Of a stretch of 64,000 bases of DNA, positions 39,301-62,776 are shown piece by piece. The stretch covers positions 41,763 to 105,762 of the forward strand of contig DATJFP010000088.1 in assembly GCA_035495615.1 (NCBI GenBank), given 5' to 3'. The notes under the pieces were generated by a model. It did not search any database and was not told where the DNA came from. It saw only the letters and a list, made by a program, of their open reading frames with translations. Origin of the DNA: Verrucomicrobiia bacterium (lineage in GTDB: Bacteria > Omnitrophota > Omnitrophia > Omnitrophales > Aquincolibacteriaceae). The stretch's first letter is position 1; every line of letters begins with the position of its first letter. The position numbers were made by a program, and so were the translations under genes.

Positions 39301-42300
39301 ATGTCCGCGACAATCGCGGTAACGCGGGCGTTGATTTCGCCCTCGATCGCGCTCCTCAAGGTTTCTCCCTTGATCTGTTTCGCCCGCGGCAACAAGGCTT
39401 CGGCGGCGTGCACGTTGGCATCGCCCGGAAGGAGGGCCGCAAGATCGCCGCGGATCGCTACTGCTTTTTCATCGTCGCTTCTCAAACGTTCGCGGATGGC
39501 CGAGAGCGCCGCCGCGACATCTTCCGCAATCTGGTCACGCACGCGTTCGGGCACGCGCGTCTCGATGGCTTGGACCTGGGCAGGCGTCGCGGTTTCGGGA
39601 TCGAGCTGGCCGAGGTCCTGTTTGGCCGCCGTGACGGCTTCGCGGTCCGCGGCGATGCGCCTCGTGATGGCGTCCATCTTGCCGCGCGCCAGATCGCGAA
39701 GGCCTGCGGCTTCCGAGGTAAGCGCGTCTTCGAGGCGCTGGACCTGCGTGTCGACTTCGGCCGCCGCGCTCAACTCGGTCAAGGCTTCCAGTTTTCCGCG
39801 GATGTTTTGGACGATCCCGCCCACTTTCGCGTTGATTTCATCCCGCACGGTTTCTCTCAGAGCGGGGTTCTTGATGTCCGCGGTCTCCGTCAAAAGGGCT
39901 TCGGCTTCTTTGACAGCGGCCGTTTCAACCGGCAGCAGTCCAAGCCGCTCACGAATGCTTTGCGCTTTTTGTCCGTCGGTTTCGATGCGCTGGCGGATCG
40001 CAAGCAGGGCCGCCTGCGCTTCGGTGCTCACCTGGCCGCGCAGACGTTCAGCAAGACCGTTCACGACGGCTTCGACATCGGTGGCCGCGGCTTCATTTAT
40101 ATTAAGGCTCGTGATCGCCTGCTTCGCCTGGCTTACGGCGAGCTCGTCCGCCCGGATCCTTCTCTCGATGGCGGCCGATTTTTCTTCCGCAAGCGTGCGC
40201 AGCCGGCCCGCTTCGGACGTGGCCGCGTCTTCCAGCCTCGGCGTAATCGCCGTCACGCTGGCGGGCTCGTTCTGGTCCGTCACGGCATTCAATTTCCCTT
40301 CGATGTCCGCAACGATCGCTTTGACTTTCTGATTGATCTCGCCTTCGACCGCGGAGCGCAGCGTTCCGTCTTTGATCTGCCCGGCGCGGGTCAGCAGCGC
40401 TTCCGCGTCTTTGATCGCCGCCGTATTGGCAATCGCTCCGAGGTCACCCCGGATGGCCGCCGCCTTTTCGGTATCGCCCTGCGTGCGTTCGCGAATCGTG
40501 GCGGCCGCGGCATCCGCTTCGGCCTTGACCTGATCACGCACCCGTTCGGGCACGCGATTGCGAAGGGCTTCTACGTCGTCCACCGCGGCCGTGTCCAGAT
40601 TGAGCGCCGCGATCGCCTGCTTGGCTTCGCGCACGGCGCGTTCGTCCGCGTCGATCCGGTTTTGAATGGCCCTGGATTTCTGCTCCGCCAACTCCCGCAG
40701 CCGGGCCGCTTCCGGCGTCACCGCGCCTTCAAGCCGCGACGTCTGGGCCGTCACTTCTTGGGCCGTGCTGAGTTCCGTCAAGGGCGTCAGCTTCGTTTCG
40801 ATGTCCGCGGCGATCTGGCCGGTCTTGGCATTGATCTCGCCTTCCACGGCCGGACGCAGCACCGCATCTTTGATCTGCGCCGCGCGGGGAAGCAGCGCTT
40901 CCGAATCCGTGAGCTTGGCCGTCGCGGCGGCGATACCCTGCAGGTCCGAACGAATCGCCGCGGCTTTTTCTCCGTCGCCCCGCGTGCGGTCGCGGATCGT
41001 GGCAATGGCCGCGTCCGCTTCGGTCTTCACCTGCTCGCGCACCCGCTGGGGCACCCCATTGCGGAGGGCTTCCACTTCGTCCACCGTGGCCGTGTCCAGA
41101 TTGAGCGCCGCGATCGCCTGCCTGGCGCCGCTCACTGCGAGCGTGTCGGATTCGCCGCGGCCGGAGATGGCCTGAGACTTTTGGCCTGCCAGCTCCCGCA
41201 GCCGGGCCGCTTCCGGCGTCACCGCGCCTTCGAGCCGCGCCGTCTGGGCCGTCACCTGGTCGGCCGTGCTTTCGTCCGTCAAGGCGTTCAACTTTCCTTC
41301 GATGTCCGCGACGATCCGCGTCACGACCGCGTTGATTTCGCCTTCCACGGTCGTCCGCGCGGTCTGGTCCTGAATCTTTGCGGCGCGCTCGAGCAGCGCT
41401 TCCGCGTCTTTGATGTTCGCGGCCGCCGGCACGATCCGTCCGAGATCCGCGGCAAGGGGCCCGCGAAGCGCCGTGTCTTCTTCGCCCCGCTTTAAGTCAT
41501 CCCGCCGCCGTTGAGCCCCTGCCAAAATCACGTCGTAGGCGCTTCTTTCATCCCCGGCGAACGTCACCCCCGTCACAAGCCGTTCCGCTTCATCAAGTTT
41601 CTGCTGCGCCTCGGCCGCTGTGTCCGCAGCCTGGGCTGCGGCAAGCAATCCGACCAGCGAAACAACATTGCCTCGGCGCGTTACCTGCTCTTGTTCGGCT
41701 CGCTTCAAGTCGCGCTGCTTTACGCGCAGGGCTTCGAGGGCTTCGGTATAACGGGCTTCTTCCTGGCCGGCAAATGTGACCTGGCTGCGCAGTGCCGTGA
41801 CGGTCGCGATCGTGGCTTCCGCCTGCGTCGACGAGGTCGGCTCCACGGCCAAAAGAGCCATCAGGTGCCGGACTTTTCCCGAACGTTCGGCTTCCGCATC
41901 TTCGTCCGTCTTGAGACGCTGCGCGGCTTCGCGTGCAAGCCCGAGCGCATCGGTGTACTGCCGCTGTTCATTCCCCTGAAATTGGACGCGGCCTGCAAGG
42001 TCTTCGGCTTCTCGGATCATTTCCTCGGCTTCGGATGCCGTTGCGGCGCGCTGCGCGCCTGTCAGCAGGCTCTGGATGCGGCGCACCGAGGCTTCGCGGT
42101 CCGCGACAAGTGCCCGATGCTCGGCGATGAGTCCGGCCAGCGCGCGCGTGCGAGTGCTTTCAGCGGCGCCTTCCAGCCTTTTTTCCTGGAGGTCGAGGAC
42201 GCCTGTGTCATAAGTGCTCGTGACCTGGGTCCGGATATTGGATTCGATGGCAAGCGCGGTTTGTTCGACTTCCCCTTCGAGCGTCGTGCGCAGGCCTTGA

Positions 42301-45300
42301 TTGCGGACGCGCGCCACGTCCTTCAGCACGGCTTCCGCTTCCGCCAGCGTGGCCGTCGCCGCTTTCACATTCAAATTCGCGAGCGCGTCACGTACGGTCC
42401 TGGCCAGGGTTTCTTCCTGCGCCACGGCTTCCTGGATGGCTTTCTTTTTCTGTCCCGCCAGCGCCTGGAGCCACGGCTGGGCCGCGGGATTGAAACGCCT
42501 TTCCTGCGCCTCGACCGCGCTGACGGCCGCGGTTTCGTCCATCGCGGTCAGCGTTTCCTGGATGTTGTCAATGAGGCTGCCGATCACGCGGCCGACTTCG
42601 CCCTGCCACGCCTGACGCACGCCTTTGTTCTGGATCTGATTGACCCGCTGATAAAGCATTTCCGCGTCGCTGATCTGGGCAGTCGTAAGGTCGAGGCCCT
42701 CGATCGCTTCCATCACGCCTACGGCAATCTCATCGTCTTTGCGGATCCTGTCGCGGATGGCCTGGCGCACGGTCTCGGCTTCTGCGGCAATGCGCGTCTG
42801 GAGAGGTTCCCGCAAAGTCGCGGCCACGGCGTTCACGTCTTCTTCCTTCGCGGTCTTCGGATCGATCTTGCTCAGTTTCCCCAGAACGTCCTGCACGCTC
42901 GCCGCGTCTTCAGTTTCCTGCAGGGCCATGAGATCCAGCACTTCCACGACCTGTTTGTCCCCGCGCACGGCGTCTTGGAGCCGCAGCGGAAGCGCAGTGA
43001 TCGCGGCTTCCACGTCCTGGGAGGCCGCTTGCCCGATCACCATGCTCGTGATGGCGGCGATCGTCTGCGTTTTCATCGCTTCGTCTTTCTGCTCACGGGC
43101 CGTGATCGCGCGGGTCATCTCCTCCACCTTGCTGCTCAGCCTTTTGAGGACGTCTTCCGGAAGGCGGAGGGCCATATCTTCGGGAAGACGGAACATGACG
43201 GCGTTGACCTGAGGCACGGTAGAGGTCTCGACCGGAAGAGCGCCGATCTCGGCAACCAATCCGTCGATAAAGGCGGAGTCGCTCGCCGCCTGGAAACGAT
43301 CATGGACCGCCTTGACGCCGGCCGTGAGATCCGTGCGCAGATTTCCGCGGTAGCCGCGGGTCCGTTCGCTCTGAGCGGCAAGCTCGTCTTCATTTTTGAC
43401 TCCGGCCAGACGCTCGACGACGTTCTGCGCCACCTTCTCCTGCTGCGCGGCCGCGGCCTGTTCGATCTGGTCCCGGTAAGCGCGGCCAGGCGCAAATCCC
43501 AGCAGCCGCAGCCCCTGTTGGACAAAAGCCGAGACGTCGCGCACCGACACCTCGCGCGCGTCGATTTCCCCGATTTGCCGGACAAGGTCTTCCACGGCAC
43601 TATCCATTCTCTGCCGGCTCCGCTGTTCGCGGCTTTCGGCAAGGTCACGCTGTCTTTTCTGTTCACGGGCCTGACGCGCCTGGTCGACCGGCACGGCTTC
43701 GAGTTGTTCGACCGCGGTTTCGCGGGCCTGTTCTTCCGGCTGTGGCACGGGCTTGGGCTGTTCTTCGGCCACTTCGGCCGCGGGAACTGACTGGACCACG
43801 AGCGAATACAGATGCGCAATGTCTTTGTATTCCTGGAGGACGAGCTTGATGACTTCCGTACGCGTCTGCACGGCCATCTCGAAAAGCGCCTGCTTTCTGC
43901 CTTGCGCGGTTTCATCCGCATCGGTCGTCGACTGCTGTTTCAGCGCCTCGAAAAGCGCGCGGATGAGCGCCGGGAGCTGGGCGAGTTTTTCCTGGACGGC
44001 CAGAAGCTGGCGCGCGGTCTGTTCGCTGGACAATTCTTCTTCGCTGGCAAGGCGTAAGGTTTCCAGGGTGTCGCGAAGGCTGTGGAGTCCCTGCACGAAG
44101 TTCGCGCCGTCCTGATAGCCTTCGCTCAGCTTCGAATAAATATCGCGGTAGGCCACACCGATGGCCTGGACCGCGTTGTCTTGGGCCGCCCGCAATTTCT
44201 CATCCAGGCTTCCGAGCGCTTCATCGAGCTGCTGGATGCGTTCGGTGAAACGCACGCGCAGCGCCTCGGCCCGGGTCTGGATTTCAGTGCCTTCATAATA
44301 AGATTCCCGTGACAAGGCAGCCAGCTGCTCCATGACCACGTCCCGAAGCCGCCACAGGGTGTACTGTTCGTTTTCGATGACCCCGGCCGCTTCACGCACC
44401 AGCGGGAATTGCCCCGCGGGCTGCTGCAGCTGGGCCTCAAGCTCTGATATATAGGAAGCGGTGTGCCCGAGCTCCTGGTCCGTTTCGCGTTCGATTGTGT
44501 TCAAACGGCGCGTCAGCACGCCCATGTTATATTCCGCGATTTGCCGGATCTTCTCGTCCGCGGCGGCGCGGACGCGGTCTTTGAGATTCGCGGGTAGGAG
44601 ATCGACCAGCCGGTTGACTTCCGCGGGCGTGCCGACCGGAACCGAGACTTTCGTCTCGATGGCGGCCGTGACTTTTTGCACCTGCAGGTCGTCGAGCTTG
44701 CCCAGGGAAGCGGCGCCGCGCGCAATAACCGCGGCAAGCGCCTGCCTTCTGGATTTCAAAAATTCAATTTCGCTTCGCACGCCGGGATCCACGGCGTCCG
44801 GATTTTTTCCGAAGGCATCTACCTTCGCGTCGAACTGCGCGAGCGTCCTATCCGCTTCCTCCCGGATTTTCCCGATCTGGAGCCGGATCGTGTCGAAGAT
44901 GCTAGTCGTTTCTTCGGTGAGGTTCGGGACGTTCATGAGGCTTTCGGCGACTTCGAGGCTGCGGATCAGCCTCGTCTCTTCCGTTTCGTAGAAAGCGCGG
45001 GCTGCGGTGACTTCGCCCTTCAAGGCCAAAACGCGTTTTTCCGTGAGTTGGATTTTACGCGTCAGTTCCCGGATCCCGGCCTGGGCGTCTTCGGTCACCC
45101 TCTTCAGGGAATCGTCGAGCTCGCGGAGAAGGTCTTCGGGTTCTTCCGTCGTCCTCAATTCCGCGCGCAGGCCGACAGCAAGCTGGGGCATCTGGCGGGC
45201 ATTCCCATTCAAGCTTGCGAGAAGCTGGCTGCGTCCTTCGCTTCCGAGACCCGCAAAATAGGCATCGGGCCGGCCGAGCAGTTCGCCGATCAGGGCCAGG

Positions 45301-48300
45301 ATTTTTCGGACCGCTCCCGCCGACGGAGTCTGCTTGAGTCCCGCCAGCGTCTGTCCCGCTTCCGCGATCGCTTTCTTGGCATCGACCGCCGCGGGCTGCT
45401 GCACGGGTTGGCGGGCCCGCTCGAGCGCACGCGCGATGCCGGGAAGATCGCGGATTTCAGGAGGCAGGGCTTCGAGAGTCTTGGCAATTTCGGCGACTGG
45501 TTCCGGGACCATCTCCGGATCGAGCTCGGGCGTCAGCGAAACATCGAGGGCATGCTGGATATTATTGTAGAGCAGATTCCCTTCTGTCCCCGTGGCCTTG
45601 TCTTCGTAAGAGAGCTTCTTAATAATGTAGTCGCGCAGGTCCGCCATTGCGAGAGCGATCGTGCCGGCCTGAATCTGGCGCGCGGCAAACAGAATCGCGT
45701 GATGGTCATACGTAATGCCCGTCGTATCCGAAACCTTGGGCATGTTCGCGGCGCGGTCTTCTTTCCAAAGGTCCTCATTGCTCATGGCCGCTTCCGGGAA
45801 GGCCTTGTTATGCTGGCGCAGCGATGCTTCCTCAAGCAAATCCAGGACGGCGTTCCGCTGCTGGCCGCCGAGCGCGTTCCAAGCCGCTTCGTCCGACCGG
45901 CGGATCAATTCGATCTGGTCGCGCAGCGCCTGCTGCAACTGCCCGGCCGCCTCTTCCCGCTGGATTTGGGAAGTCCACGCCTGCGGCAATTTATCGAGGA
46001 TCCAACGCTGTACCTGGACCGAATAATCCGTGACTTTCTTTTCCGTGGCCGTGCGCGGAACGGTGAGGCTCATCGGGTCTCCCGGCTGGACTTGCAGCCG
46101 GTCCAGATGCATCAGGAAATGAATGAGCGCGTTCTTTTCCTGCTTCGTCCACGACGTAAGCTCGGAGTTCCACCGCTGAAGCCCCATGAACCGGTTTCTC
46201 GAGAGATCGTAGCGGCGCTTTTCGATTTCCGGACGCGGGCGCTCCACAGCGCCTTCCTGGAACCGCAATTCGCCTTTCAACGCGGCCTGGCCGAGGTCGG
46301 TAACGACGACGCTGATCTGGCCGGGCTGCACCTTGCCGAGCGCTTCCGTGACGGCCGGATCCCTGACCAAGTGCGCATCCACGGGCCCGGAATAATAGTT
46401 GCTGTCGCCGAGCTCCAGCCGGTTCAAACGGTCGGGCTGTTTGAAAAGCCCGCGGGCTTCCGAATCCTGGCTGCGAAGCACCTTCGCAAAAAGGCGCAGC
46501 GCCTGTGTCTTGTCTTCGCCCGTCTGCCACAAAAACTGGTTCGGACCTTTCCGCTCCAGCACGCCGCCGAAACGGTTGACGATCGCGAGGAGACCCTGCT
46601 GGTATTCCGCAGGAATTTCCGCGGCGATTTTCTTACGCATTTCCTCGAGCGCCTGCTCAGGAGTATTGCTTTCGAAGATGCTTTCGACGATCGTCAGGGT
46701 CATGAGGAAAAAGGCGTGCGCGTATTCAGGATCGCGGGCGATGAAATCGGCGGCTTCCTGGCGGAGACCCAGGCTCGCCGCATTCAGAAATTCGCGCGCC
46801 TTGGGCGATTTTTCGATGACCATGTGCCAGGCCGCGAGCTGGAAGCGCGGGTCGCTCAGGCTTTGCTGCTGGGGCGGGAGGAAAGTCTCCACCAGCCGCG
46901 TTTCGAGCGGCATCGGCTTCTGGCTGAGGGCGTCCACGTAAAGCTGCGTTTCCTTGGTGTCGTCGATCTGGCCGTGGATCCGCGGCGCGATCACAAGGAA
47001 AGAATAATCGTTTTCCTTGAGATAGGCCTCGATGCCGGGCGTATGGAAACCACCGGTAATGATCGCCATGATCTGCTGCTTCCCGGATTCCATTTCCCCG
47101 ACCGCTCTCTCGATCAGGATCTTGTCGCGTTTGAGAGCTGCGGAATAATAACGCTCCACGCGGCCAAGATCCTGATCAAGGATCTCCAAAAGGGACGGCA
47201 ATCCATTGGAGAACTGATGTTGCTTTAAGAGCGGTACGAGGAAATTACGGAATGTCTCTGCCTTGAATTCGTCGCGGTATGTGTAGAAAAAGTCTGCGTC
47301 CTGCTTGGTCAGGGTGAAATTGAACATCTTCTGGTAAATCTCGAAAATGCGGAACAGCCGGTCCAGCTGCACTTCCTCTTCGTTGCGGAACAGCTTGTTC
47401 TTGATGTCCCGCTCGAGCGCCTCGATCTCGCTGAAGATCGCGACGTCGATCGAATCGTAGAGCCTCATATATTTAAGGTAGCGCAGGACCTCGTCGTACT
47501 TCTGGGCCAGCTCTTCCTGCCCGGCCCCCTGCGTCGACTGCATGTTCTGGATTTCGACCTGGAGATAGCCGTAATAGTCCGCGCGCTTCATCTTCTTCAT
47601 GCGGAACTGGACCGTGTTGGTCAGAAACTCGGAGAGTTTTTCACGCGTGAGGACGTTTTTCAGGTCGTTGATCAGGTCTTCGATGCTTTTTTCGGCTTTG
47701 TCGAAATCGATTTCTTTTTCGAGATCGATGAGCGAGAGAAGCGAGTGCATGCCCGGATAATCGTAAAGGGCGATGTTTTCTTTGCGGGCCGTTTCCACGA
47801 GATGGCGGACGTAACTCACGAGTTCGTTGCCGCCGGACTGGAAGGCCTGCCGGTAATGCAGCATGTCCCGCAGATCATCGGAGAAAACGAACCGGGAAAC
47901 ATCGTCCATCAGCTTTCCGAGGTCCGCCAGAACTTTTTCGTCTCGGTCTTTGTATTGCAGGGCGTCGAGATAAGCGCGCCTGTTTTCTTCATAGATCTGG
48001 CGGTCTTCCACGCCGTACAGGTTCAGTTCCGGCCGGTCGACGATCGCGAGGTATTCGGGCCCCGTCAAACGGGCTTCTTTCAAAAAGTAATCCGCGACAT
48101 TTTTGCGGGCTTCTTTGTTCGGAAAAAACGAAAAGAGTTCGGTGAAGAGTTCGCCCTCGGCGCCTTCCAGGTTGATCAGTTTAAGACCGTAATTTTTGGC
48201 GAAATAATCAAGGATGCCCGCGATGTTGCGCTGGGCCTCTTCATTTGCATGAGCGTCCTGGATGTGGATGACGATGCGGTCGCGGGAACCCTGGAAGTTT

Positions 48301-48530: not shown

Positions 48531-48704
48531 GAGGATTTGCCGTCCCTATGTTTTGCTGGCCAAATTGACGTGCTAACTTACCGACTACTTAAAAAATTGA
48601 TTTATATTGTTATATTTAAACTATATATCAAAGTTTTTAAACTCACAATAGTATAGACCGAAATAATTGTAAGTTAAATACTTGATAAAAGTTTTTATGA
48701 AGTA

Positions 48705-48733
48705 AGTATAGCCGCCACTTTCTAAATTGTCAA
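48705..48733 (-). promoter_or_regulatory. Candidate sigma70-type promoter for the giant gene
   Basis: The minus strand reads TTGACA (48733-48728), then a 17-nt spacer, then TATACT (48710-48705). It sits in a ~265-bp AT-rich intergenic region, about 175 nt upstream of ATG 48530. Confidence 0.4.
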
Positions 48734-48779
48734 TCGGAACTTTAGGCAGAAAGGGAGTTTAGCCTGGTTTTAAGGAAAG

Positions 48780-48795
48780 CCCCTACAATAAGGGG
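48780..48795 (-). terminator. Short hairpin directly after the stop of the response-regulator gene; weak intrinsic-terminator candidate
   Basis: The minus strand reads AAA-CCCCT-TATTGT-AGGGG-CTTTCCTTAAAA. The stem is 5 bp, the loop 6 nt, and the U-tract is poor. Confidence 0.3.
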
Positions 48796-48796
48796 T

Positions 48797-49228
48797 TTAT
48801 TCTTCGGGATCGTCTTCCGGGGTCTTCTTCGGGGCGAGGTTATCTTCGATGCATTTGACCAGGTCCTTGGTACTGACCGGCTTAGAAAGGGCAGGTTTAA
48901 TGGTAAACGGCCGCCCCCCTACCACTCCGCCGAAGGCTTCGCTTTGCCCCTTGCCCACGGTAGCGGTAAGAAAAACGATGGGGGTGTTATTGATCTTTTC
49001 CGTTTCTCGGATTTCGATGGCCACCTCCGTACCACGCTTGTCCGGCATAATCACGTCCAGAAGAATGAGGTCGGGTTTGAAGTCTTTGGCCGCCTGCAGC
49101 CCCTGGGCGCCTTTGGTCTCCACGCGGACCTCGAACTTTCCGAGGGCTTCCAGGTTTTTTTTGATCATGCTTGCGAATTTTTCTTCATCGTCGATAACAA
49201 GGATTTTTTTCTTTGCCGGGTCTGCCAT
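48797..49228 (-). CDS. Single-domain response regulator (CheY-like receiver)
   Basis: 143 aa. KILVIDDEE...PDLILLDVIMPDKRG...PIVFLTA...IKP gives a canonical acidic pocket, phospho-acceptor Asp, Thr and Lys. AGGAGG lies 4 nt upstream of the ATG. Confidence 0.9.
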   Translation of the reverse strand: MADPAKKKILVIDDEEKFASMIKKNLEALGKFEVRVETKGAQGLQAAKDFKPDLILLDVIMPDKRGTEVAIEIRETEKINNTPIVFLTATVGKGQSEAFGGVVGGRPFTIKPALSKPVSTKDLVKCIEDNLAPKKTPEDDPEE

Positions 49229-49239
49229 GATTCCTCCTG

Positions 49240-50802
49240 TTAAAATTTCAGCGTGACTTTGGCGCCGTTTTTCTTTCGGTTTTCGATTTTTATTTCCCCT
49301 TTGTGCATTTCGACGATGCTTCGAACGACCGAAAGGCCCAAACCGGTGCCGCCGAGTCCGCGGCGCGTCGTAATGAACGGGTCAAAAATCTTGTCTAGAA
49401 TCTCCGCAGGGATGCCCGTTCCTGTATCTTCTATTTCGACCACGACGCGAAATTCTCCAGCAGGAGGATCCAGGCGACGCGTCGTCAAAATAAGGTCGCC
49501 TCCCTGAGGCATCGCGTGAATGGCATTGGAGAACAGGTTAACAAAAACCTGCATCATCCTGTTTTTGTCGAGCGGCAGCGGAGAAACGCCCGAATCGTAT
49601 TTCTTGGAAGTTTGGACTTTATTATTCATCAGCAGGTGCTTGACCAGATTCAGCGATTCATCCATGACTGAATGCAAATCCACGTTTTCCATCATGGGTT
49701 CCACGGGAGCGGCAAAATCCAGGAGACCTTTGATGACAGCGTCGGCCCGGCGCACCGCGTCGATCATGTCCTGCAGGACGCTTGCCTTTTCCTGATCTGC
49801 ATCACCCATCGTCTGCTGTAAATATTCCGCGCCTTGAAGCAGGATCGCCAGGGGGTTTTTGACCTCATGAGCCACGCCCGCGGCTAAGCGGCCCACCGAT
49901 TGCAATTTCTCCGCCTGGATGAGCTGGTCCTGGGTGGAACGCAGACGTTCATTGACCCGTTTCAATTCCATCAGGGCTTCGATGAGCTTCTGCTCGTTCT
50001 TTAATTGCTCCTGAATGGCGTCTTTGAGCTTTTCCTCGACCTTGACCTGGTCCGAGATCTCCCGAAAAAAAAGCATCAGGCCGGCAAGCGTGTTGTTGTC
50101 AAACACCGGATGGACAACGAAGTTCACCGTCAAGGTCCCGCCCTTTTTGTCATAAAAAGAGACCTGATCGGCGGCGCGCAGTTGTCCGTCGCGGAGGGTT
50201 TCCAACATTTCTTTCCCTGGATTCAAAGCCGGCGGTGAAAGGCCTGTATCCGGCATCAGGATCTCCTCGAGGCTGTGGCCGAGAATCTCCTTCACGCTCC
50301 GTCCGAGCATCCGGCACGCAGAAGCATTCGTTTGAACAGCCCTGCCGTTCAGGTCCGTCTCCACGATTCCTTCGGTCACGGCATTCACGATCAAAGCCTT
50401 CCTCAGCTGGCTGCTCAGGAGCGCGATCTGGAGATCTTTCTTGGAAGCGGCATTCTTAAGCCAATGCGCCAGAAGCTCCGCGTCCAGGCTCGCCTTGGGA
50501 AGATAATCGGCAAATCCCATCTGCAGGGCCTGGGCGGCCGCCCGCTCATCATTGTTGCGGATGAGCGCAAGAACAGGGATTTGTTTGGACTCGGAAGAGA
50601 ATTTTTCAACGCGATCGGGACGTCCGGAAAAAAAATCGAAATTGACCAGAATGATGGAAGGCAAAAAACCGCGGATCTTCGACAAGCCCTCTTCGAGGTC
50701 CGCCGCTCTATAAATCTGCAGGCTCGCTATTTTCTGCGATTCCAGCAGCCCTTCCAAAAAGTCGGCATCCTGGGCATTGTTTTCGATGAGAAGGACCTTC
50801 AT
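49240..50802 (-). CDS. Sensor histidine kinase with N-terminal receiver-like domain, PAS-like region, HisKA and HATPase_c
   Basis: 520 aa. H-box: LAAGVAHEVKNPLAIL. ATPase boxes: FVNLFSNAIHAM, EDTGTGIP, GGTGLGLSVVRSIVEMHKG. The N-terminal 120 aa has a receiver-like pattern (VLLIENN...SIILVNFDF...YLPK). Confidence 0.9.
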   Translation of the reverse strand: MKVLLIENNAQDADFLEGLLESQKIASLQIYRAADLEEGLSKIRGFLPSIILVNFDFFSGRPDRVEKFSSESKQIPVLALIRNNDERAAAQALQMGFADYLPKASLDAELLAHWLKNAASKKDLQIALLSSQLRKALIVNAVTEGIVETDLNGRAVQTNASACRMLGRSVKEILGHSLEEILMPDTGLSPPALNPGKEMLETLRDGQLRAADQVSFYDKKGGTLTVNFVVHPVFDNNTLAGLMLFFREISDQVKVEEKLKDAIQEQLKNEQKLIEALMELKRVNERLRSTQDQLIQAEKLQSVGRLAAGVAHEVKNPLAILLQGAEYLQQTMGDADQEKASVLQDMIDAVRRADAVIKGLLDFAAPVEPMMENVDLHSVMDESLNLVKHLLMNNKVQTSKKYDSGVSPLPLDKNRMMQVFVNLFSNAIHAMPQGGDLILTTRRLDPPAGEFRVVVEIEDTGTGIPAEILDKIFDPFITTRRGLGGTGLGLSVVRSIVEMHKGEIKIENRKKNGAKVTLKF

Positions 50803-50877
50803 GACGACACACCGGTCTTCGGGAATAAACCAGATTCAGGAAGGAAATGTTGGGGCGCGGGACGTAGGAAGCGAGGA

Positions 50878-51243
50878 TTACTCTTCCCCAAGATTGCTTC
50901 GCACTTTTTTTAGCAGGTCTTCCGGGCGGTAGGGCTTCACCATGTAGTCCTTGACGCCTTCGAGCTCGAACAGGTCTTTCATCTTATCCTTGGCAGTCAG
51001 GACAATCACGGGAGTCGCCTTGATGGCCTCATTGCGCTTGAGCGTCCTTACGAAAGTGTAGCCGTCCATCTTGGGCATGAGAACATCGACGATGATGAGA
51101 TCGGGATGTTCTTTTTGGACTTGCAGGAGGCCTTCTTCCCCGTCATGAGCCGTCACTACCTGATAGGAACACGCCACCAAACGGTTCTTCAGCAGTTCCA
51201 CGATGTGGGGGTCGTCGTCAATGACTAGGATTTTTTTTGACAT
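50878..51243 (-). CDS. Single-domain response regulator (CheY-like receiver)
   Basis: 121 aa. [15 protein letters not shown]...[16 protein letters not shown]...PVIVLTAK...DYMVKP. Confidence 0.95.
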
Positions 51244-51326
51244 TCATCCTCAATGCCTTCGCCGGGAGAGGGCCCGATGTCGGCCCCTAAAATATCGGCC
51301 TCTCTCCAGGGAAAATTAAGCGAAGA

Positions 51327-51402
51327 TGGTGGACCTGAGGAGGATCGAACTCCTGACCTCATCGTTGCGAACGATGCGCTCTCCCAGCTGAGCTACAGGC
51401 CC
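51327..51402 (-). tRNA. tRNA-Ala(CGC): tRNA-Ala, anticodon CGC, with genomically encoded CCA
   Basis: The minus strand reads GGGCCTGTAGCTCAGCTGGGAGAGCGCATCGTTCGCAACGATGAGGTCAGGAGTTCGATCCTCCTCAGGTCCACCA. It folds by hand into a 76-nt cloverleaf with stems of 7, 4, 5 and 5 bp, anticodon loop TTCGCAA, T-loop TTCGATC, and the G3:U70 alanine identity pair. Confidence 0.95.
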
Positions 51403-51411
51403 ATTGAATTT

Positions 51412-52257
51412 TTAGTCCAGACGCGAAAAGGATTCCGACGCGTTAAGAAACTGGCGGAGCACTTCAAAGACCTTTTCCTGGCCTAATTCATTAAAAATTT
51501 CATGATAAAACCCCTCGAAGATTTGCATCTCTTTGTGGGGTGACTTCACTTTGTCAAAGAAAGCCTTCGTTTTTTCCCGGTCCACGACTTTTTCAAGCCC
51601 AGACATCAGGATGTAAACGGGAAAAGGGAAATCAAATGCCGGTTCGGCATCAATTTTGCGGCCATATGTTATCATTTCCGCCAGCAATCGAACAGAAATT
51701 TTTCGCTTAATGAGCGGGTCCTTTTTGTAGGCCTCGATCTCTTCGGGATTATGCGACAAGTGCGGCGGGTAGACGGGATTGGCATACACGAGCCTCGGGT
51801 GAATCCGGTTGAGCATCGCGTTGAATGCGATCAGAAAGGAAGACAGCTTGAGCCCCAGGCACGGTGACGATAAAATCAAGCACGCAATTTCTTCCGGAAA
51901 CCGCTTCGCCCAATGGACCGCGACAAGCCCGCCGAGGCTGTGCCCGAACAGAATGATCTTACCGTTCACACCGTGGCGTTTTCTCAAAAAATCCCGGAAC
52001 GCGGTGAGGTCGTCCACAAACCGGTCGAGCGAATCAATATAAACCTCGCGTCCCCCTGAACGCCCCATACCCCGCGCGTCGTACATGGCCAGGGATATCT
52101 TCTGCGTTTCGAGATGACGGACAAATTTATGATACCGGCCGCAGTGCTCGCCGTGTCCATGGACGATGATCATGGTCCTCTTGGCGTCGGGATTAGCGTA
52201 ATAGCGGTAAAATAATTTTGTCCCGTCCTGCGCTTGAAAAAAATCCTGCTCTTCCAT
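51412..52257 (-). CDS. Alpha/beta hydrolase, lysophospholipase/monoacylglycerol-lipase-like
   Basis: 281 aa. Motifs: [14 protein letters not shown] and the nucleophile elbow LFGHSLGG. Confidence 0.85.
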
Positions 52258-52267
52258 GCCGCTGCTT

Positions 52268-54073
52268 TCAGGAAACGGTCCTGAAAGACTCTCCTTTTTG
52301 ATACATGGCTTCGACCACCGATTGGAACTTTTCCAAAACCGCCTTCCGTTTGATTTTCAGGGTAGGCGTCAGCTCTCCCCCTTCGACGGTCAGGTCCTTT
52401 TCGAGAAGCGTGAAATATTTGATCTGTTCATACCGCGCGAGATTCGCCGTCTTGGCCTTAATATGCTCCTCGGCCCACTGCAGGATCTGGGGATCTTTGA
52501 GGAGTTCCGCCCACGGCCGCTGCAGTCCCAGAGCGGCGGCATGCCCCTCGAATTCGGTGCGGTTAGGGACGATCAGGGCCACAAGATAGTTCCGCTTGTC
52601 GCCGACCACCACGGCCTGGAGGAAGATGCGGTCTGCGGTCAGTGTGTTTTCGATGTTCTGCGGGGAGATATTCTTCCCGCCCGAGGTTACGATGATGTCT
52701 TTTTTCCGATCTGTGATTTTCAAAAAACCTTCCGCATCGATTTCTCCGATATCTCCGGTACGAAACCAGTCTCCGTCAAACACCTGCCGCGTGGCCTCGG
52801 GATTCTTGTAATAACCTTTCATGACGCACGGTCCCTTGGTGAGGATTTCGCCGTCCTCCGCGATTTTGACTTCCACGTTGGGAAGCGGCTTCCCTACGGT
52901 TCCCAATTTGAGCGCATTGGGACAGTTCACCGCAATGACCGGGGAGGTTTCGGTGAGTCCGTATCCTTCCAAAATAACGACGCCGGCTGCGTAAAAAAAT
53001 TCCGCGAGCTCTTTGGAAAGCGGGGCCCCGCCCGAAATAAAAAACCGGATACGCCCTCCGAGCTTGCCGCGCAGTTTATTGAAAACCAGAAGCGCGGCAA
53101 TGCCTCTTTTGAATTTCAAAGCAGGCGAAGGCTGTTTCTTACGCAGGTTGACGGCTGCGTACTCCCGCCCCGTTTTCACGGCCCAGGCAAACAGAGCTTT
53201 GCGGAGCGGCGAGGCATGCTCGATCTTTTCCATGATACGCGCATGCATTTTTTCGTAGAGGCGCGGGACGCTGGCCGCAATCGTCGGTCGCACTTTCATC
53301 ATGTCGTCGGGAACGCTCTGCATACTTTCCGCGTAGGCAATGGCAGCGCCGTGAAAAATCATGAAATAATAGCCGGCAAGGCGCTCGAAGACGTGGCTCA
53401 AGGGCAGAAAAGAAAGCGCGACATCGTCTTCCCGGACTTCGATGACTTCGCTGGCGCCGAGGTAATTCGCCACGAAATTCCGGTGGGTCAGCATGACTCC
53501 TTTCGGAGGGCCCGTGGTGCCGGAAGTATAGATTAGCGTCGCAAGATCTTCGGGCGACGTCTTGTCTATTTCCTGGCGCACCGTGTCGGGCGAGCGTTTT
53601 TTTTCTTCTTCTCCTTTTTTCAGAAAACCGTCGAATCCGGGCCCGTCGAAGAGGACGAGCATCCGGAGCGCCTGGTAGCCCGACAATGCCTCCTGAATGC
53701 GCGCCTGCTGTTCTTGCGTGGAGACAAACAGGACCTCGATACCGGCATTTTCCAGGATGTAACGGATGTCTTTGCAGGAGGAGGTGGGATAAATGGGAAC
53801 CGTGACGGCTCCAAGCGACAAAATACCGAGATCGGCGACAGTCCATTCAGGCCGGTTTTCGGAAAGGATTCCGACGCGGTCCCCTCGGCGCACGCTGGCC
53901 GCATGAAGCGCGAAGGCCGCCGCCTCGACTTTGGCAGCCCATTCCTTCCAGGTCCAGCCCACGTAATCGCCTGAGGGACGGGTCTTATAGAAGAGCGCTT
54001 TTCTGTCCCGGAACCGGTCCACCCGCGCGAGGTAAAGCTGGACCAGGTTGGATGACAACTCCTGATTGTCCAT
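52268..54073 (-). CDS. Long-chain fatty-acid--CoA ligase (AMP-forming acyl-CoA synthetase)
   Basis: 601 aa. Motifs: IYTSGTTGPPKGVMLTHRNF, EGYGLTETS, WFRTGDIGEIDAEGFLKITDRKKDIIVTSGGKNISPQ. Confidence 0.95.
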   Translation of the reverse strand: MDNQELSSNLVQLYLARVDRFRDRKALFYKTRPSGDYVGWTWKEWAAKVEAAAFALHAASVRRGDRVGILSENRPEWTVADLGILSLGAVTVPIYPTSSCKDIRYILENAGIEVLFVSTQEQQARIQEALSGYQALRMLVLFDGPGFDGFLKKGEEEKKRSPDTVRQEIDKTSPEDLATLIYTSGTTGPPKGVMLTHRNFVANYLGASEVIEVREDDVALSFLPLSHVFERLAGYYFMIFHGAAIAYAESMQSVPDDMMKVRPTIAASVPRLYEKMHARIMEKIEHASPLRKALFAWAVKTGREYAAVNLRKKQPSPALKFKRGIAALLVFNKLRGKLGGRIRFFISGGAPLSKELAEFFYAAGVVILEGYGLTETSPVIAVNCPNALKLGTVGKPLPNVEVKIAEDGEILTKGPCVMKGYYKNPEATRQVFDGDWFRTGDIGEIDAEGFLKITDRKKDIIVTSGGKNISPQNIENTLTADRIFLQAVVVGDKRNYLVALIVPNRTEFEGHAAALGLQRPWAELLKDPQILQWAEEHIKAKTANLARYEQIKYFTLLEKDLTVEGGELTPTLKIKRKAVLEKFQSVVEAMYQKGESFRTVS

Positions 54074-54116
54074 CGGACCTCCGGAAGATACTGTTGCTGG
54101 CCGCGGACTGGCGGGG

Positions 54117-54818
54117 CTAAAGGGGCTGTTCTTGATCCTGAGATTCTTCGGAGGGGCCCTGGTCGAACGAATCGACGGTTGCCTTGTTCTTTTCGGTTTC
54201 TTGTCCGATCAGACGCATTTTTTCCTGCCGCAGAATCTCATCCACATCCTCAGATTTGACCTCACCCGCGTCCTTCTTCTTTTCTTGGATCTCCTCGAGT
54301 AATTTGCGGTGGATCTTAGCCTGGTCTGTTATTTGTTCGATTTGGGCAATTTGCGCTTGGCGGGCTTGCTTGATTTTCTCATTCGCGCGGATGATTTCGC
54401 TGATCTGCTTTTGAATCCGGATCACCTGGAGGTCGCGGAAAACATTGCTTCCCCCTCCCCCTCCTCCCGACGCGGGAGCTGCATTGACGGATGCCGGCGG
54501 AAGAGCGGCCGCTTTCTGCGATTCGGTGACGCCTTTCGGCGCGGCCTTCATTTTATCAGGAGCCGACCGCGGTGCTTCGTCCTCGGCCACGGCATCCGGA
54601 AGTTGGAAATCGTCGGATGTAACCTGCTGTTTCATGTCTTCGGTCGTCATCTCCAAAACATTCGGGCGGGTCAATTCGGCATCATCGGAAGGCATCGAAA
54701 GGCTGCTGGAAGACTGGGACAGGGAATCGGATTTCTGCTTTTCCTGTTTTTTCCCGAAAGTAAAACCCAAACTCAAACACACCGAGAGAGTTACAACAAG
54801 GAACTGCCGGTGAAGCAT
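54117..54818 (-). CDS. Hypothetical secreted protein (signal peptide, acidic/Ser-rich region, Gly6 run, C-terminal coiled coil)
   Basis: 233 aa. N-terminus MLHRQFLVVTLSVCLSLGFTFG. C-terminal heptad-like QKQISEIIRANEKIKQARQAQIAQIEQITDQAKIHRKLLEEIQEKKK. No recognisable family. Confidence 0.55.
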   Translation of the reverse strand: MLHRQFLVVTLSVCLSLGFTFGKKQEKQKSDSLSQSSSSLSMPSDDAELTRPNVLEMTTEDMKQQVTSDDFQLPDAVAEDEAPRSAPDKMKAAPKGVTESQKAAALPPASVNAAPASGGGGGGSNVFRDLQVIRIQKQISEIIRANEKIKQARQAQIAQIEQITDQAKIHRKLLEEIQEKKKDAGEVKSEDVDEILRQEKMRLIGQETEKNKATVDSFDQGPSEESQDQEQPL

Positions 54819-54980
54819 ATTTCCCCTTTCGAGCCTATTCCCCGCGTCATGAAACGGGGGCCGCAGATGTTGCTAAAAGTTATCGGCCTTTTATCTTAAG
54901 GATTAAGAGCTGTGCACTCAAATACTAGCATGGAAACTTAAATTTGTCATCCAACCATCAAAAAGGAGCCAAAACTATCA

Positions 54981-57014: not shown

Positions 57015-57134
57015 AGGCCTCTATTATCGGCTGTTAAGAGGATTGGATTGAACGCCAATGAGGAAGATAGCCGCGGGGAAGACGGGACCCAAGGATGAGT
57101 CCGGAATGGTACGGGATCTAAGGCAAGCGGAATC

Positions 57135-57566: not shown

Positions 57567-57744
57567 TTGATCGAGATAGACTTTTATAAGTCGTTAAAAA
57601 AACTGGGCTTACGAATAGCGTTTCCAAAATCAATCCAAATATAACACATGAATTTTTCGTTTACAAGAGCACCAAAAAAAAATCTTGGAGCTTTAACTCG
57701 AAGAATGGAAGGGACTTACAGAGCGGGGAAAGAGTTTCCAGAAA

Positions 57745-58242: not shown

Positions 58243-58251
58243 AGCGGAGCT

Positions 58252-58617: not shown

Positions 58618-58643
58618 GAGCGCCGGGTCCTCTCAAAAGGCTT

Positions 58644-59663: not shown

Positions 59664-59680
59664 AAAGAAAGACCGTCCTT

Positions 59681-60178: not shown

Positions 60179-60179
60179 A

Positions 60180-61383: not shown

Positions 61384-61404
61384 AAGGCCTCCCAGTAGGA
61401 ATGA

Positions 61405-62676: not shown

Positions 62677-62776
62677 GGATCGTTTTCTTTTTGGAGGATT
62701 CAGGAAAGACGTTTCGTACCGATTTCTTCCAGTAAAGATTCGGCCGGTCGCCTTAAAAAATGAAGGATCGAGAAGG

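What the first reader, a model, noticed from the sequence alone, without database searches (positions are those of the whole stretch)
46900..48800. Sharp compositional step inside the giant gene: a host-like 5' end and a much more GC-rich remainder
Seen, from rough hand counts of individual 60-nt lines: 43-53% GC in lines sampled at 47.0-47.8 kb and in neighbouring genes at 49-52 kb. Lines sampled at 46.9 kb, 46.0 kb and near coordinate 1 gave 60-70%. The protein composition changes in parallel: the N-terminal ~500 aa are Lys/Asn/Tyr/Ile-rich like the neighbours, and the remainder is Arg/Ala/Glu/Gly-rich and Lys-poor. Inference: either most of the gene has a foreign or separate evolutionary origin fused behind a native N-terminal export module, or strong amino-acid and repeat-driven bias shapes it.
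Basis: partly seen in the sequence, partly recalled or inferred. Interest (0 to 1): 0.55.

Follow-up and report, generated by a model that had tools for sequence, protein, structure and literature searches.

The report
Composition step inside Omnitrophota giant gene
The sharp GC jump is real, but it marks the border between a conserved enzyme-like head domain and an alanine/arginine-rich body of one native giant gene of an Omnitrophota bacterium, not a foreign graft; codon choice does not change at that point.

Summary
The best GC change-point in 40-64 kb is at 46,990 (0.629 against 0.529). It lies inside a stop-free minus-strand ORF (3..48,530, at least 16,176 codons, cut by the window edge) of an Omnitrophota bacterium.

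The step falls at codon 514, the end of a conserved, membrane-anchored head module with a Tiki/TraB/ChaN/erythromycin-esterase-like fold. Only codon positions 1 and 2 change there (GC12 0.447 to 0.522), so the step comes from amino-acid composition. Synonymous usage does not change (p = 0.43-0.67).

The whole gene, head included, is richer in GC3 than the 16 flanking genes. It uses the same unusual codon preferences as they do (GAA, CGC and GGC favoured). The bias grows from 5' to 3' (ENC 46 to 35).

The head and the flanks are syntenic and diverge together in about ten relatives. The body is an orphan: it cannot be aligned even with 60-69% identical orthologues, and nothing matched past about residue 855 among 1.84 billion proteins. 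Relatives show no such GC excess.

A foreign graft or a chimeric join at 47 kb is therefore not supported. The cause of the gene-wide GC3 excess is inferred to be selection on translation and ORF integrity. Homopolymer depletion fits this. Separately noted: the protein has no cysteine.

The parts
3..48530 (-). Giant ORF, at least 16,176 codons from the ATG at 48,530, with no stop. It runs off the window at coordinate 1.
   Evidence: Six-frame stop-free scan and translation. The head hits only Omnitrophota proteins.
46989..48530 (-). Conserved N-terminal module (residues 1-514): a TM anchor, an alpha/beta core split by a helical insert of about 300 residues, and invariant H94, E122 and H496. 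GC is 0.535 and GC12 is 0.447.
48441..48497 (-). N-terminal hydrophobic segment (residues 12-30), a signal anchor or TM helix.
   Evidence: Kyte-Doolittle scan. Helix 9-32 in the model.
46986..46992 (.). The compositional step. The nucleotide GC change-point is at 46,990 and the GC12 change-point is at codon 514 (46,988).
   Evidence: It coincides with the last beta strand, E510-516, of the module model.
46386..46988 (-). Conserved extension of the module (residues 515 to about 715). It is already in the GC-rich composition and is still alignable to relatives, so homology runs unbroken across the step.
   Evidence: tblastn alignments to 30 or more loci end at residues 560-692. Hits of the full HMMER scan are confined to residues 516 to about 715, at most 855.
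34227..43484 (-). Array of about 20 diverged (30-70% identical), all-helical repeats of about 167 residues, rich in Ala, Glu and Arg and free of aromatics. GC12 peaks here at 0.60-0.61.
   Evidence: AF2 model with pLDDT 90.9, all helix. No PDB fold match.
20460..22463 (-). The only body domain shared with relatives (residues 8690-9357). In L022, L025 and L030 it sits 450-700 residues after the module, which shows that the bodies are mosaic.
   Evidence: tblastn, 26-35% identity. No PDB or word-index hits.
10281..14486 (-). Two clusters of TM-like segments (residues 11,349-11,623 and 12,023-12,750).
   Evidence: Hydropathy scan, 22 segments in all.
111..281 (-). Start of a cytidylate-kinase-like P-loop domain embedded near the window edge.
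   Evidence: Pfam PF02224, E 2e-8. PDB cytidylate kinases, E 8e-5.
48705..48733 (-). Promoter-like site TTGACA-17-TATACT (11 of 12 matches) in the 30% GC spacer upstream of the giant gene. The terminator-like hairpin of the preceding gene lies at 48,780-48,794.
   Evidence: These are consensus matches only.
48797..63948 (-). Sixteen co-oriented flanking genes: RR, PAS-HK, RR, hydrolase, acyl-CoA ligase-like, cNMP-patatin, PilZ, YajQ, PilZ, SPOR, GNAT, SPOR, GH1, LepB and the LepA C-terminus. They serve as the background: GC 0.538, GC3 0.66, ENC 47.9.
   Evidence: Synteny with L001, L008 and other loci.
51327..51402 (-). tRNA-Ala(CGC), conserved upstream of the module in 7 of 10 relatives.

Best explanation
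SHOWN. The window holds the first 16,176 or more codons of one giant, membrane-associated protein gene of an Omnitrophota bacterium. It has its own AT-rich, promoter-like upstream region.

The GC step at 46,990 is the border between two parts of the protein.
- Part (i) is a conserved, TM-anchored head of about 514 residues. It has a Tiki/TraB/ChaN/erythromycin-esterase-like fold and ordinary globular composition. It is inherited vertically together with the flanking genes.
- Part (ii) is a fast-evolving body. It starts with Ala/Arg/Glu/Gln-rich, aromatic-poor helical sequence and later carries helical repeats of 167 residues. Its codons are GC-rich at positions 1 and 2.

Synonymous usage does not change at the step, so it is a protein-composition boundary. 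It is not a join of two DNA histories.

Separately, the whole gene, head included, carries more GC3 than its neighbours. It uses the same preferred codons as they do, but more strongly. The bias rises along the ORF: the GC3 residual goes from +0.07 to +0.15 to +0.20, and ENC goes from 46 to about 36 by codon 7000.

INFERRED. This extra bias reflects selection acting on a very expensive ORF, for translational efficiency, accuracy and processivity. The cost of ribosome drop-off grows with position, which would explain the rise. Selection against frameshift-prone runs fits the roughly 9-fold lower density of homopolymers. A uniform GC mutation pressure or a high-GC donor is less likely. By analogy with the C39 and S8 peptidase heads of other giant Omnitrophota proteins, the head may act as a membrane-tethered hydrolase or peptidase that processes the giant protein or a target.
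For: The step is real and sharp.

Decomposition of the GC difference. Of the 0.098 difference between body and flanks, about 0.052 comes from amino-acid composition and about 0.046 from synonymous usage.

At the step itself.
- GC12 changes at codon 514 (46,988) from 0.447 to 0.522.
- The GC3 residual is +0.068±0.020 for codons 1-510 and +0.076±0.008 for codons 510-3000 (p = 0.67). It is 0.00 in the flanks (p = 0.002).
- A log-likelihood scan of codon usage shows no step at 47 kb.

Native codon preferences.
- The preferred codon is the same in nearly every family.
- Flanks and giant gene deviate from the trend across Omnitrophota in the same direction. GAG as a share of Glu codons is 0.31 in the flanks and 0.25-0.28 in the giant gene, against 0.48-0.57 predicted. 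CGC as a share of Arg codons is 0.40 and 0.46-0.63, against 0.26-0.32 predicted.

Not a uniform GC pressure.
- Seven G/C-ending codons fall: GAG, GGG, CGG, AGG, CCC, TCC and TTG.
- Two-fold codon families shift heterogeneously. The log-odds ratio is +1.69 for Phe, +1.51 for Gln and -0.16 for Glu (Cochran Q 79.8, p 1.5e-14).

Gradient along the ORF. ENC is 47.9 in the flanks, 46.4 in the head, then 42.9, 41.9, 39.7 and about 36. Spearman correlation of the GC3 residual with position is 0.71.

Homopolymer runs of 6 or more.
- Density is 0.35 per kb in the giant gene against 3.0 per kb in the flanks. Observed over synonymous-shuffle expectation is 17/28 against 41/28.
- The same direction is seen in 22 relatives (p = 0.002).

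Continuity across the step.
- Alignments to 30 or more relatives run unbroken across codons 510-545.
- The head and the flanks are collinear, and their identities fall together in L008, L001, L014, L031, L020, L039, L043 and others.
- The RR gene and the 5' end of the giant gene are also joined on contigs from two other samples.

Fold of the head.

Theory of position-dependent selection against nonsense errors: PMC13271495.
Against: Background and coverage.
- Only 15 kb of background is available, and the genome-wide GC and the optimal codons are unknown.
- Read coverage could not be checked, and both metagenome scans found nothing.

Signs that the giant gene stands apart from the flanks.
- The dinucleotide-signature distance between flanks and body is 86, against 30 between the two halves of the flanks. 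Five of 68 foreign loci are closer to the body than the flanks are. The gene is therefore compositionally distinct beyond GC.
- Relatives show no excess. Body GC minus background GC averages 0.000±0.020, and the body GC3 residual averages -0.031. ENC is about 52, with no gradient over their first 3600 codons. The GC3 excess is lineage-specific, and the positional model rests on a single gene.

Weaknesses of the selection argument.
- Much of the ENC drop is what any GC3 shift would give. By Wright's expectation the deficit rises only from about 13% to about 19% (my arithmetic from the values).
- The fall in stop-adjacent codons (0.339 to 0.271 per codon) is confounded with GC.

Confidence: 0.72

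Rival explanations
1. The body, or the whole gene, was acquired or replaced by recombination from a related Omnitrophota lineage with higher GC. The step marks where the native conserved head meets imported DNA.
For: - The body is unalignable even with 60-69% identical orthologues. One shared domain sits at a different distance from the head in relatives, so the bodies are mosaic.
- The dinucleotide distance from flanks to body is 86.
- The GC excess is unique to this lineage.
- The head exists as a separate gene in some genomes.
Against: - Synonymous usage does not change at 47 kb. The head itself already carries the giant-gene GC3, CpG and GG/CC signature, yet it is vertically co-inherited with the flanks.
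- The body shares the flanks' off-trend codon preferences, with low GAG and high CGC and GGC.
- The GC3 excess rises gradually rather than in a block.
- No homologue of residues from about 720-855 up to 1500 exists among 1.84 billion representatives. The two other body segments tested by word-index search (residues 8600-9500 and 10,000-11,000) also found nothing.
- No integrase or mobile-element genes are present in the window.
Confidence: 0.12
2. Neutral GC-enriching process local to this gene. GC-biased gene conversion in a recombination-prone, hypervariable surface gene, or transcription-associated mutation bias, raises GC at all codon positions.
For: - GC rises at all three codon positions, and the Arg/Lys ratio rises from 0.77 to 1.8-2.6.
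- The body is hypervariable between relatives.
- CpG is enriched.
Against: - Glu stays about 72% GAA, and seven G/C-ending codons decrease. The shifts are strongly heterogeneous between codon families.
- Relatives with equally variable bodies show no GC3 gain.
- Internal repeats are only 30-70% identical at the protein level, with no sign of recent conversion.
Confidence: 0.1
3. Assembly chimera. Two populations, one at 53% GC and one at 63% GC, were joined in frame within the conserved head/extension region.
For: - The step is very sharp.
- An independent JGI protein (P0001) from the same population has a deletion and frameshift at residue 441 and stops at about 47,000. This hints at assembly or strain trouble nearby.
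- Coverage could not be checked.
Against: - The frame stays open for 16,181 codons.
- Homology to 30 or more relatives is continuous from the head through residues 560-692, across the step.
- GC3 residual, codon log-likelihood and CpG signature are the same on both sides.
- The same rise in GC2 after the module occurs in nearly all relatives (module GC2 0.26-0.38, body 0.30-0.46).
Confidence: 0.04

Closest known systems
Giant genes of Omnitrophota ('Archaeovorin' and Dockerin-type giant proteins; West-Roberts et al. 2023, bioRxiv 10.1101/2023.11.21.568195; Nielsen & Lui 2026, bioRxiv 10.64898/2026.06.07.730766)
   Same: - The phylum is the same.
- It is a single ORF of tens of kilobases.
- It has an N-terminal signal or TM segment and many further TM segments.
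- Most of its length has no annotation.
- A putative hydrolase or peptidase sits at the N-terminus.
- Small-enzyme domains are embedded in it (cytidylate-kinase-like).
- It lies in a co-oriented gene neighbourhood with PilZ genes.
   Different: - In the 16,176 residues available there are no GT, GH, methyltransferase, NUDIX, HEAT, dockerin or SecA_DEAD Pfam domains.
- The head has a Tiki/TraB/EreA-like fold, not the C39 or S8 peptidase described in those papers.
- Neither paper's text, as searched here, discusses GC, codon-usage or homopolymer patterns in giant genes.
Tiki/TraB/PrgY/GumN/ChaN/erythromycin-esterase superfamily (Pfam clan with PF01963, PF04187, PF05139; structures 2rad, 2qgm, 2g5g, 6xcq, 5t09, 5w6l)
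   Different: - No member reaches a Pfam gathering score, and no PDB sequence hit was found.
- A helical insert of about 300 residues splits the core.
- The domain is N-terminally membrane-anchored and fused to a protein of more than 16,000 residues.
Position- and length-dependent codon adaptation (selection against nonsense errors / ribosome drop-off; Cope, Pak & Gilchrist 2026, PMC13271495; earlier work by Eyre-Walker 1996 and Gilchrist et al., from my own knowledge)
   Same: Codon bias is weakest at the 5' end, rises along the CDS and then plateaus.
   Different: Here the rise extends over about 7,000 codons in a single bacterial gene. The organism's optimal codons and tRNA pool are unknown, and relatives sampled over 3,600 codons show no trend.
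Compositionally atypical genomic islands (horizontal transfer)
   Same: A long stretch with GC about 10 points above the neighbours, and a tRNA gene nearby.
   Different: - The boundary lies inside a protein-coding domain junction.
- Codon preferences match the host.
- The tRNA and the gene order are conserved in relatives.
- No integrase or repeats were found.

Membership tests
Omnitrophota giant genes (Archaeovorin type, West-Roberts 2023) | Encoded by Omnitrophota; a single uninterrupted ORF of giant length | tested here: met
   The head hits only Omnitrophota MAG proteins and contigs. The frame is stop-free for 16,181 codons and is truncated by the window. The full length is unknown.
Omnitrophota giant genes (Archaeovorin type, West-Roberts 2023) | Numerous transmembrane segments | tested here: met
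   22 Kyte-Doolittle TM-like segments, including two clusters. This is a hydropathy scan, not a dedicated predictor.
Omnitrophota giant genes (Archaeovorin type, West-Roberts 2023) | GT, GH, methyltransferase, peptidase, NUDIX and HEAT domains | tested here: not met
   A Pfam scan of all 16,176 residues found only weak PP2C_2, ARMT1-like and a cytidylate-kinase P-loop. The authors needed structure prediction to find many domains, so this negative is weak.
Omnitrophota giant genes (Archaeovorin type, West-Roberts 2023) | Divergent SecA_DEAD / preprotein-binding domain, usually towards the C-terminus | tested here: inconclusive
   Not found in the part inside the window. The 3' part of the gene lies outside the window.
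Tiki/TraB/ChaN/erythromycin-esterase superfamily (head module) | Shared alpha/beta fold | tested here: met
Tiki/TraB/ChaN/erythromycin-esterase superfamily (head module) | Significant match to a family profile | tested here: not met
   No Pfam hit at threshold. Only Cofac_haem_bdg at E 0.006 (2 of 16 members) and TraB at E 0.01 (1 of 16). No PDB sequence hit.
Tiki/TraB/ChaN/erythromycin-esterase superfamily (head module) | Conserved His/Glu/His catalytic or metal-binding motifs | tested here: inconclusive
   H94, E122 and H496 are invariant in 16 sequences. Their equivalence to the family's motifs was not checked by residue-level superposition.
Tiki/TraB/ChaN/erythromycin-esterase superfamily (head module) | Hydrolase (protease or esterase) activity | not testable with these tools
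   Needs biochemistry.
Horizontally acquired island | Codon and oligonucleotide usage foreign to the host | tested here: inconclusive
   Same preferred codons and the same off-trend preferences as the flanks. However, GC3 is stronger and the dinucleotide distance is 86, against 30 within the flanks.
Horizontally acquired island | Phylogenetic or syntenic incongruence; mobility genes at the borders | tested here: not met
   The head is collinear and co-diverging with the flanks in about ten relatives. No integrase or transposase domains were found. The body could not be tested because it has no homologues.
Chimeric contig | Break in homology, frame or signature at the join | tested here: not met
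   Continuous alignments across codons 510-545, an open frame, and unchanged GC3 residual and CpG on both sides.
Chimeric contig | Coverage or read-pair discontinuity | not testable with these tools
   No reads were available. Exact-pattern scans of metagenome contigs found nothing.

The most novel reading that the evidence does not exclude
Giant ORFs are shaped by selection for ORF integrity that strengthens with distance from the start codon. In this gene, codon bias climbs over about 7,000 codons (ENC 46 to 35). G/C-ending codons that would extend a run (NGG, NCC) are replaced by NGC and NCG. Homopolymer runs are purged about 9-fold. Codons one mutation away from a stop decline. Together these effects produce much of the GC excess. 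If this held in complete Omnitrophota genomes, giant genes would be a natural test bed for nonsense-error and frameshift-cost theory, and the pattern would help explain how ORFs of 50-400 kb stay intact. A second novel element is that a previously undescribed Tiki/TraB-like membrane-anchored head family (561 or more loci) is the conserved 'handle' on which unrelated giant bodies are built.
Probability: 0.3. Interest if true: 0.65.

Novelty: new member of a known kind. Interest (0 to 1): 0.38.

Why it matters
For the scan, a 10-point GC step inside a gene looked like a graft or a chimera. It turns out to be an ordinary domain-composition boundary and should not be counted as evidence of horizontal transfer.

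Three things may be of wider use.
1. Total GC can mislead where GC3 or residual codon analysis does not.
2. The head module defines a large, unannotated family (561 or more loci). It marks the start of many Omnitrophota giant genes, so it could be used to find and orient them in fragmented assemblies.
3. The 5'-to-3' codon-bias gradient and the homopolymer depletion, together with the complete absence of cysteine, give testable hints about how very long ORFs are kept translatable and intact.

Tried and rejected
Searches that found nothing or could not run.
- Independent contigs spanning the step: two exact-pattern scans of metagenome contigs found nothing. The contig of P0001 is not on record. 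Contigs carrying the identical RR gene are only 2.6-2.8 kb long and have no DNA available.
- Donors or homologues of the body: word-index searches with residues 8600-9500 and 10,000-11,000 found nothing. A full HMMER scan with residues 516-1500 hit only the module extension. PDB sequence searches found nothing useful.
- The afdb50 fold library was unavailable.
- The first self-BLAST returned nothing for a technical reason and was redone with fragments.

Explanations tested and rejected or left open.
- Repeat-driven composition is rejected. There are no DNA tandem repeats of note, and the protein repeats start 3.5 kb past the step.
- The dinucleotide genome signature was tried as a test of nativeness and was inconclusive.
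- A family-wide GC excess in giant genes is rejected. 23 relatives show none.
- An ENC gradient was looked for in 22 relatives and not seen over their first 3,600 codons. Power is low, because this window's gradient also appears mainly after about codon 4,800.
- Stop-adjacent codon load falls along the gene but is confounded with GC.
- There is no relation between gene length and GC3 among the 16 flanking genes (rho -0.05).
- The fold of the 167-residue repeat has no significant PDB match.
Full report
**1. What is there**

The window contains one stop-free minus-strand frame from 48,545 down to coordinate 3. That is 16,181 codons, with an ATG at 48,530, and the frame runs off the window.

Upstream lies a 250-nt spacer of about 30% GC. 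It holds a near-consensus promoter-like site, TTGACA-17-TATACT, at 48,733-48,705. A terminator-like hairpin follows the preceding response-regulator gene.

From 48.8 to 64 kb there are 16 co-oriented ordinary genes: RR, PAS histidine kinase, RR, hydrolase, AMP-binding enzyme, cNMP-patatin, PilZ, YajQ, PilZ, SPOR, GNAT, SPOR, GH1, LepB and the end of LepA. A tRNA-Ala(CGC) also lies there.

The first 520 residues of the giant protein match only proteins of Omnitrophota MAGs. Most of those are annotated 'partial', meaning giant genes cut by contig ends. A scan of GTDB species genomes found at least 561 stretches encoding the same module, all in Omnitrophota or unclassified PVC bins. The object is therefore a member of the giant genes known from this phylum (West-Roberts et al. 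2023; Nielsen & Lui 2026).

**2.

One-kilobase GC is 0.60-0.68 up to 47 kb and 0.46-0.57 beyond it. The best single change-point in 40-64 kb is at 46,990 (0.629 against 0.529). Neighbouring 500-nt windows fall from 0.604 to 0.508. None of 93 body windows is below 0.56.

The amino-acid claim is largely right. Lys, Tyr and Phe drop, and Ala and Arg rise. Glu is enriched only in residues 516-4700, and Gly is not enriched.

**3. What changes at the step and what does not**

I split GC by codon position and compared observed GC3 with the value expected from the flanks' synonymous usage given the amino acids. I call the difference the GC3 residual.

| Segment | GC1 | GC2 | GC3 |
|---|---|---|---|
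| Flanks | .59 | .37 | .66 |
| Head (codons 1-520) | .60 | .30 | .70 |
| Remainder | .68 | .43 | .80 |

Of the 0.098 GC difference between body and flanks, about 0.052 comes from amino-acid composition and about 0.046 from synonymous usage.

Within the first 1000 codons, the GC12 change-point is at codon 514, which is 46,988 (0.447 to 0.522). GC12 then climbs further, to 0.56 and then to 0.61 in the Ala-rich repeat region.

The GC3 residual behaves differently.
- It is 0.00 in the flanks.
- It is +0.068±0.020 in codons 1-510.
- It is +0.089±0.018 in codons 510-1020.
- It is +0.076±0.008 in codons 510-3000.
- There is no change at the step (p = 0.43 and 0.67), but the head differs from the flanks (p = 0.002).

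A per-codon log-likelihood scan (flank model against distal-body model) also shows no step at 47 kb. The dinucleotide signature agrees. CpG relative abundance is 1.19 in the flanks, 1.34 in the head and 1.31-1.37 in the body. GG/CC is 1.02, 0.90 and 0.78-0.81.

The 47-kb step is therefore a protein-composition boundary. The boundary in 'DNA style' lies at or just inside the start of the gene.

**4. What the two protein parts are**

*Head (residues 1-514).*
- An alignment of 16 family members shows invariant QDAH94, E122-G, G173-x-E175 and GGFH496.
- AlphaFold2 gives a confident model (pLDDT 83). It has an N-terminal helix (9-32) and an alpha/beta core built from strands 73-174 and 487-516. A helical insert of about 300 residues interrupts the core.
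- Three family members give sub-threshold Pfam hits to ChaN/Tiki and TraB. No profile threshold is reached.
- The last beta strand of the core (510-516) coincides with the step.

*Extension.* Homology to relatives continues past the step, to residues 560-692 in tblastn. In a full HMMER scan of 1.84 billion representatives it continues to about 715, at most 855, and always lies directly after the targets' own head.

*Body.*
- It starts with Ala/Gln/Arg/Glu-rich, aromatic-poor sequence.
- From residue 1683 to 4768 it contains about 20 diverged copies (30-70% identical) of an all-helical unit of about 167 residues. The unit has no PDB fold match.
- Further on there are 21 TM-like segments.
- One domain (8690-9357) is shared with three relatives.
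- A cytidylate-kinase-like P-loop lies at the window edge.
- Pfam finds nothing else.

**5. History of the two parts**

The head and the upstream genes are collinear in about ten relatives. Their identities fall together: L008 and L001 are closest for both, followed by L014, L031, L020, L039, L043, L035 and L034. The head is therefore native and vertically inherited.

In a few genomes the head is a separate gene of 504-524 residues. There it sits between a giant gene with a PilZ gene and large genes carrying glycolytic-enzyme domains. In most genomes it is fused to an ORF of thousands of codons.

The body has no alignable counterpart, even in orthologues whose heads are 60-69% identical. The single shared domain lies 450-700 residues after the head in L022, L025 and L030, but 8,000 residues after it here. 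So the head and the body do have different evolutionary dynamics.

**6. Is the body foreign?**

*Evidence against a foreign body.*
- The preferred codon is the same as in the flanks for nearly every amino acid, including the unusual retention of GAA and about equal use of AAA and AAG.
- Relative to the trend across 83 Omnitrophota loci, flanks and giant gene deviate in the same direction.

| Codon share | Flanks | Giant gene | Predicted from trend |
|---|---|---|---|
| GAG among Glu | .31 | .25-.28 | .48-.57 |
| CGC among Arg | .40 | .46-.63 | .26-.32 |
| GGC among Gly | .45 | .51-.68 | .38-.43 |

- The shift is not a uniform GC push. Seven G/C-ending codons decrease: GAG, GGG, CGG, AGG, CCC, TCC and TTG.
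- Two-fold families shift heterogeneously. The log-odds ratio is +1.69 for Phe and -0.16 for Glu (Q = 79.8, p = 1.5e-14).
- No donor could be found.

*Evidence that keeps the question open.*
- The dinucleotide distance from flanks to body is 86, against 30 within the flanks. Five of 68 foreign loci are nearer to the body than the flanks are.
- The excess is lineage-specific. In 23 relatives the body-minus-background GC is 0.000±0.020 (maximum 0.039), and the body GC3 residual is -0.031±0.043. Here the values are about +0.09 and +0.076 to +0.138.

I rate import of the body at about 0.12.

**7. Chimera?**

Reads were not available, and searches for independent spanning contigs failed.

Internal evidence argues against a join at 47 kb.
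- The frame is open for 16,181 codons.
- Alignments to relatives run unbroken across the step.
- Synonymous and dinucleotide signatures are identical on both sides.
- The same rise in GC2 after the module occurs in nearly all relatives.

One oddity remains. A JGI protein from the same population (P0001) is identical to residue 441, and then shows a deletion and frameshift that end at about 47,000.

**8. Why is GC3 higher, and why does it rise along the gene? (inference)**

- The GC3 residual goes from +0.07 (codons 1-3500) to +0.10 to +0.15 (4000-7000) and +0.12 to +0.20 beyond. The Spearman correlation with position is 0.71.
- ENC falls from 46.4, through 42.9, 41.9 and 39.7, to about 36. In blocks of 1200 codons it falls from 43.6 to 34.5.
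- The codons that gain are NNC in all pyrimidine-ending two-fold families, plus ATC, CTG, CGC, GGC, CAG and NCG. GAA is kept. From my own knowledge, this resembles translational selection as seen in many bacteria.
- Theory predicts that selection against ribosome drop-off strengthens with codon position (PMC13271495).
- Homopolymer runs of 6 or more occur at 0.35 per kb in the giant gene (17 observed, synonymous-shuffle expectation 28, z = -2.5). In the flanks they occur at 3.0 per kb (41 observed against 28 expected, z = +2.9). Runs of 7 or more number 1 against 18.
- The same direction holds in 22 relatives: 1.79 against 2.76 per kb, and observed over expected 0.93 against 1.14 (Wilcoxon p = 0.002).
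- NGG and NCC are replaced by NGC and NCG.
- Single-step routes to stop codons fall from 0.339 to 0.271 per codon. This is confounded with GC.

*Caveats.*
- Much of the ENC change is what a GC3 shift alone produces.
- Relatives have weak bias (ENC about 52) and no gradient in their first 3,600 codons.
- Only one full gradient is observed.
- The optimal codons of this genome are unknown.

I give this mechanism about 0.4. The core statement, that the step is an amino-acid boundary within one native gene, I give about 0.8.

**9. Comparison with what is known**

As a gene it belongs with the Omnitrophota giant genes. In the part available, however, it lacks the domain set that defines 'Archaeovorins' or the Dockerin type. 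Its head is a Tiki/TraB/EreA-like fold rather than the C39 or S8 peptidases reported.

Neither giant-gene paper, as far as their text could be searched, discusses GC or codon patterns.

The compositional step itself is ordinary once decomposed.

**10. Verdict**

Amino-acid bias is correct, and a separable native head is correct. A foreign graft, a repeat-driven cause and a 'host-like' codon style at the 5' end are not supported.
- Novelty: a new member of a known kind, with an undescribed head family and suggestive signatures of selection for ORF integrity.
- Interest: 0.38.

Noticed in passing
window 3-48530 (-): The giant protein has no cysteine at all in 16,176 residues. The flanks have 0.63% Cys, which gives P of about 1e-45. 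In relatives, ORFs of 2000 residues or more have 0.28% Cys against 0.84% in ordinary ORFs, and 6 of 64 are Cys-free.
   Followed up: partly
window 3-48530 (-) versus 48797-63948: Homopolymer runs are strongly depleted in the giant gene. Runs of 6 or more occur at 0.35 per kb against 3.0 per kb in the flanks, and runs of 7 or more number 1 against 18. The giant gene lies below its own synonymous-shuffle expectation, while the flanks lie above theirs. The same direction is seen in 22 related loci (p = 0.002).
   Followed up: partly
window 51327-51402 (-); L008, L014, L020, L027, L031, L039, L043: A tRNA-Ala(CGC), which reads GCG, lies 2.8 kb upstream of this Ala-rich gene (12.8% Ala, 46-49% of it GCG). 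The same tRNA is conserved 0.4-2.8 kb upstream of the head module in 7 of 10 syntenic relatives.
   Followed up: partly
window 3-48653 (+), frame in phase with the giant gene: Sixteen antisense 'shadow' ORFs of 400-1,940 codons tile the plus strand. They exist because the sense codons TTA, CTA and TCA occur only 8, 1 and 12 times in 16,176 codons. They could mislead gene callers.
   Followed up: yes
L002, L004, L005, L006 (module at about 10001-11515): In more distant Omnitrophota the head module is a stand-alone gene of 504-524 residues. It sits right after a giant gene (6,300 to 11,500 or more residues) and a PilZ gene, and before ORFs of 1,000-2,700 residues carrying PFK, FBPase, PPDK, PGK, TIM and enolase domains.
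   Followed up: partly
L011, L022, L045, L048, L059, L060, L070, L072, L073; CP070780.1 (L074, L081): Several loci carry two copies of the head module within 10 kb, and single genomes carry two or three loci. The module therefore heads multiple large genes per genome.
   Followed up: no
window about 47,000-47,210 (-); protein P0001: A JGI protein from the same population is identical up to residue 441. It then shows a deletion of roughly 94 nt (estimated by eye, not computed) with a frameshift, and it ends at a TGA at about 47,000, close to the step. This is either a strain variant or an assembly error.
   Followed up: partly
window 111-281 (-): A cytidylate-kinase-like P-loop domain begins about 90 residues before the window edge, inside the giant ORF.
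   Followed up: no
L001 (JGI 3300056623), 1-18886: The syntenic orthologous locus lies in a genome of about 37% GC. There the giant gene is called in pieces (691, 1160, 571 ... residues). Its GC is also 4-5 points above its flanks, starting at the head.
   Followed up: partly
window 57135-58617 (-) and relatives: A PilZ - YajQ (DUF520) - PilZ trio, together with a cNMP-binding patatin-like phospholipase, is conserved upstream of the giant gene in relatives. This hints at cyclic-nucleotide signalling linked to the locus.
   Followed up: no
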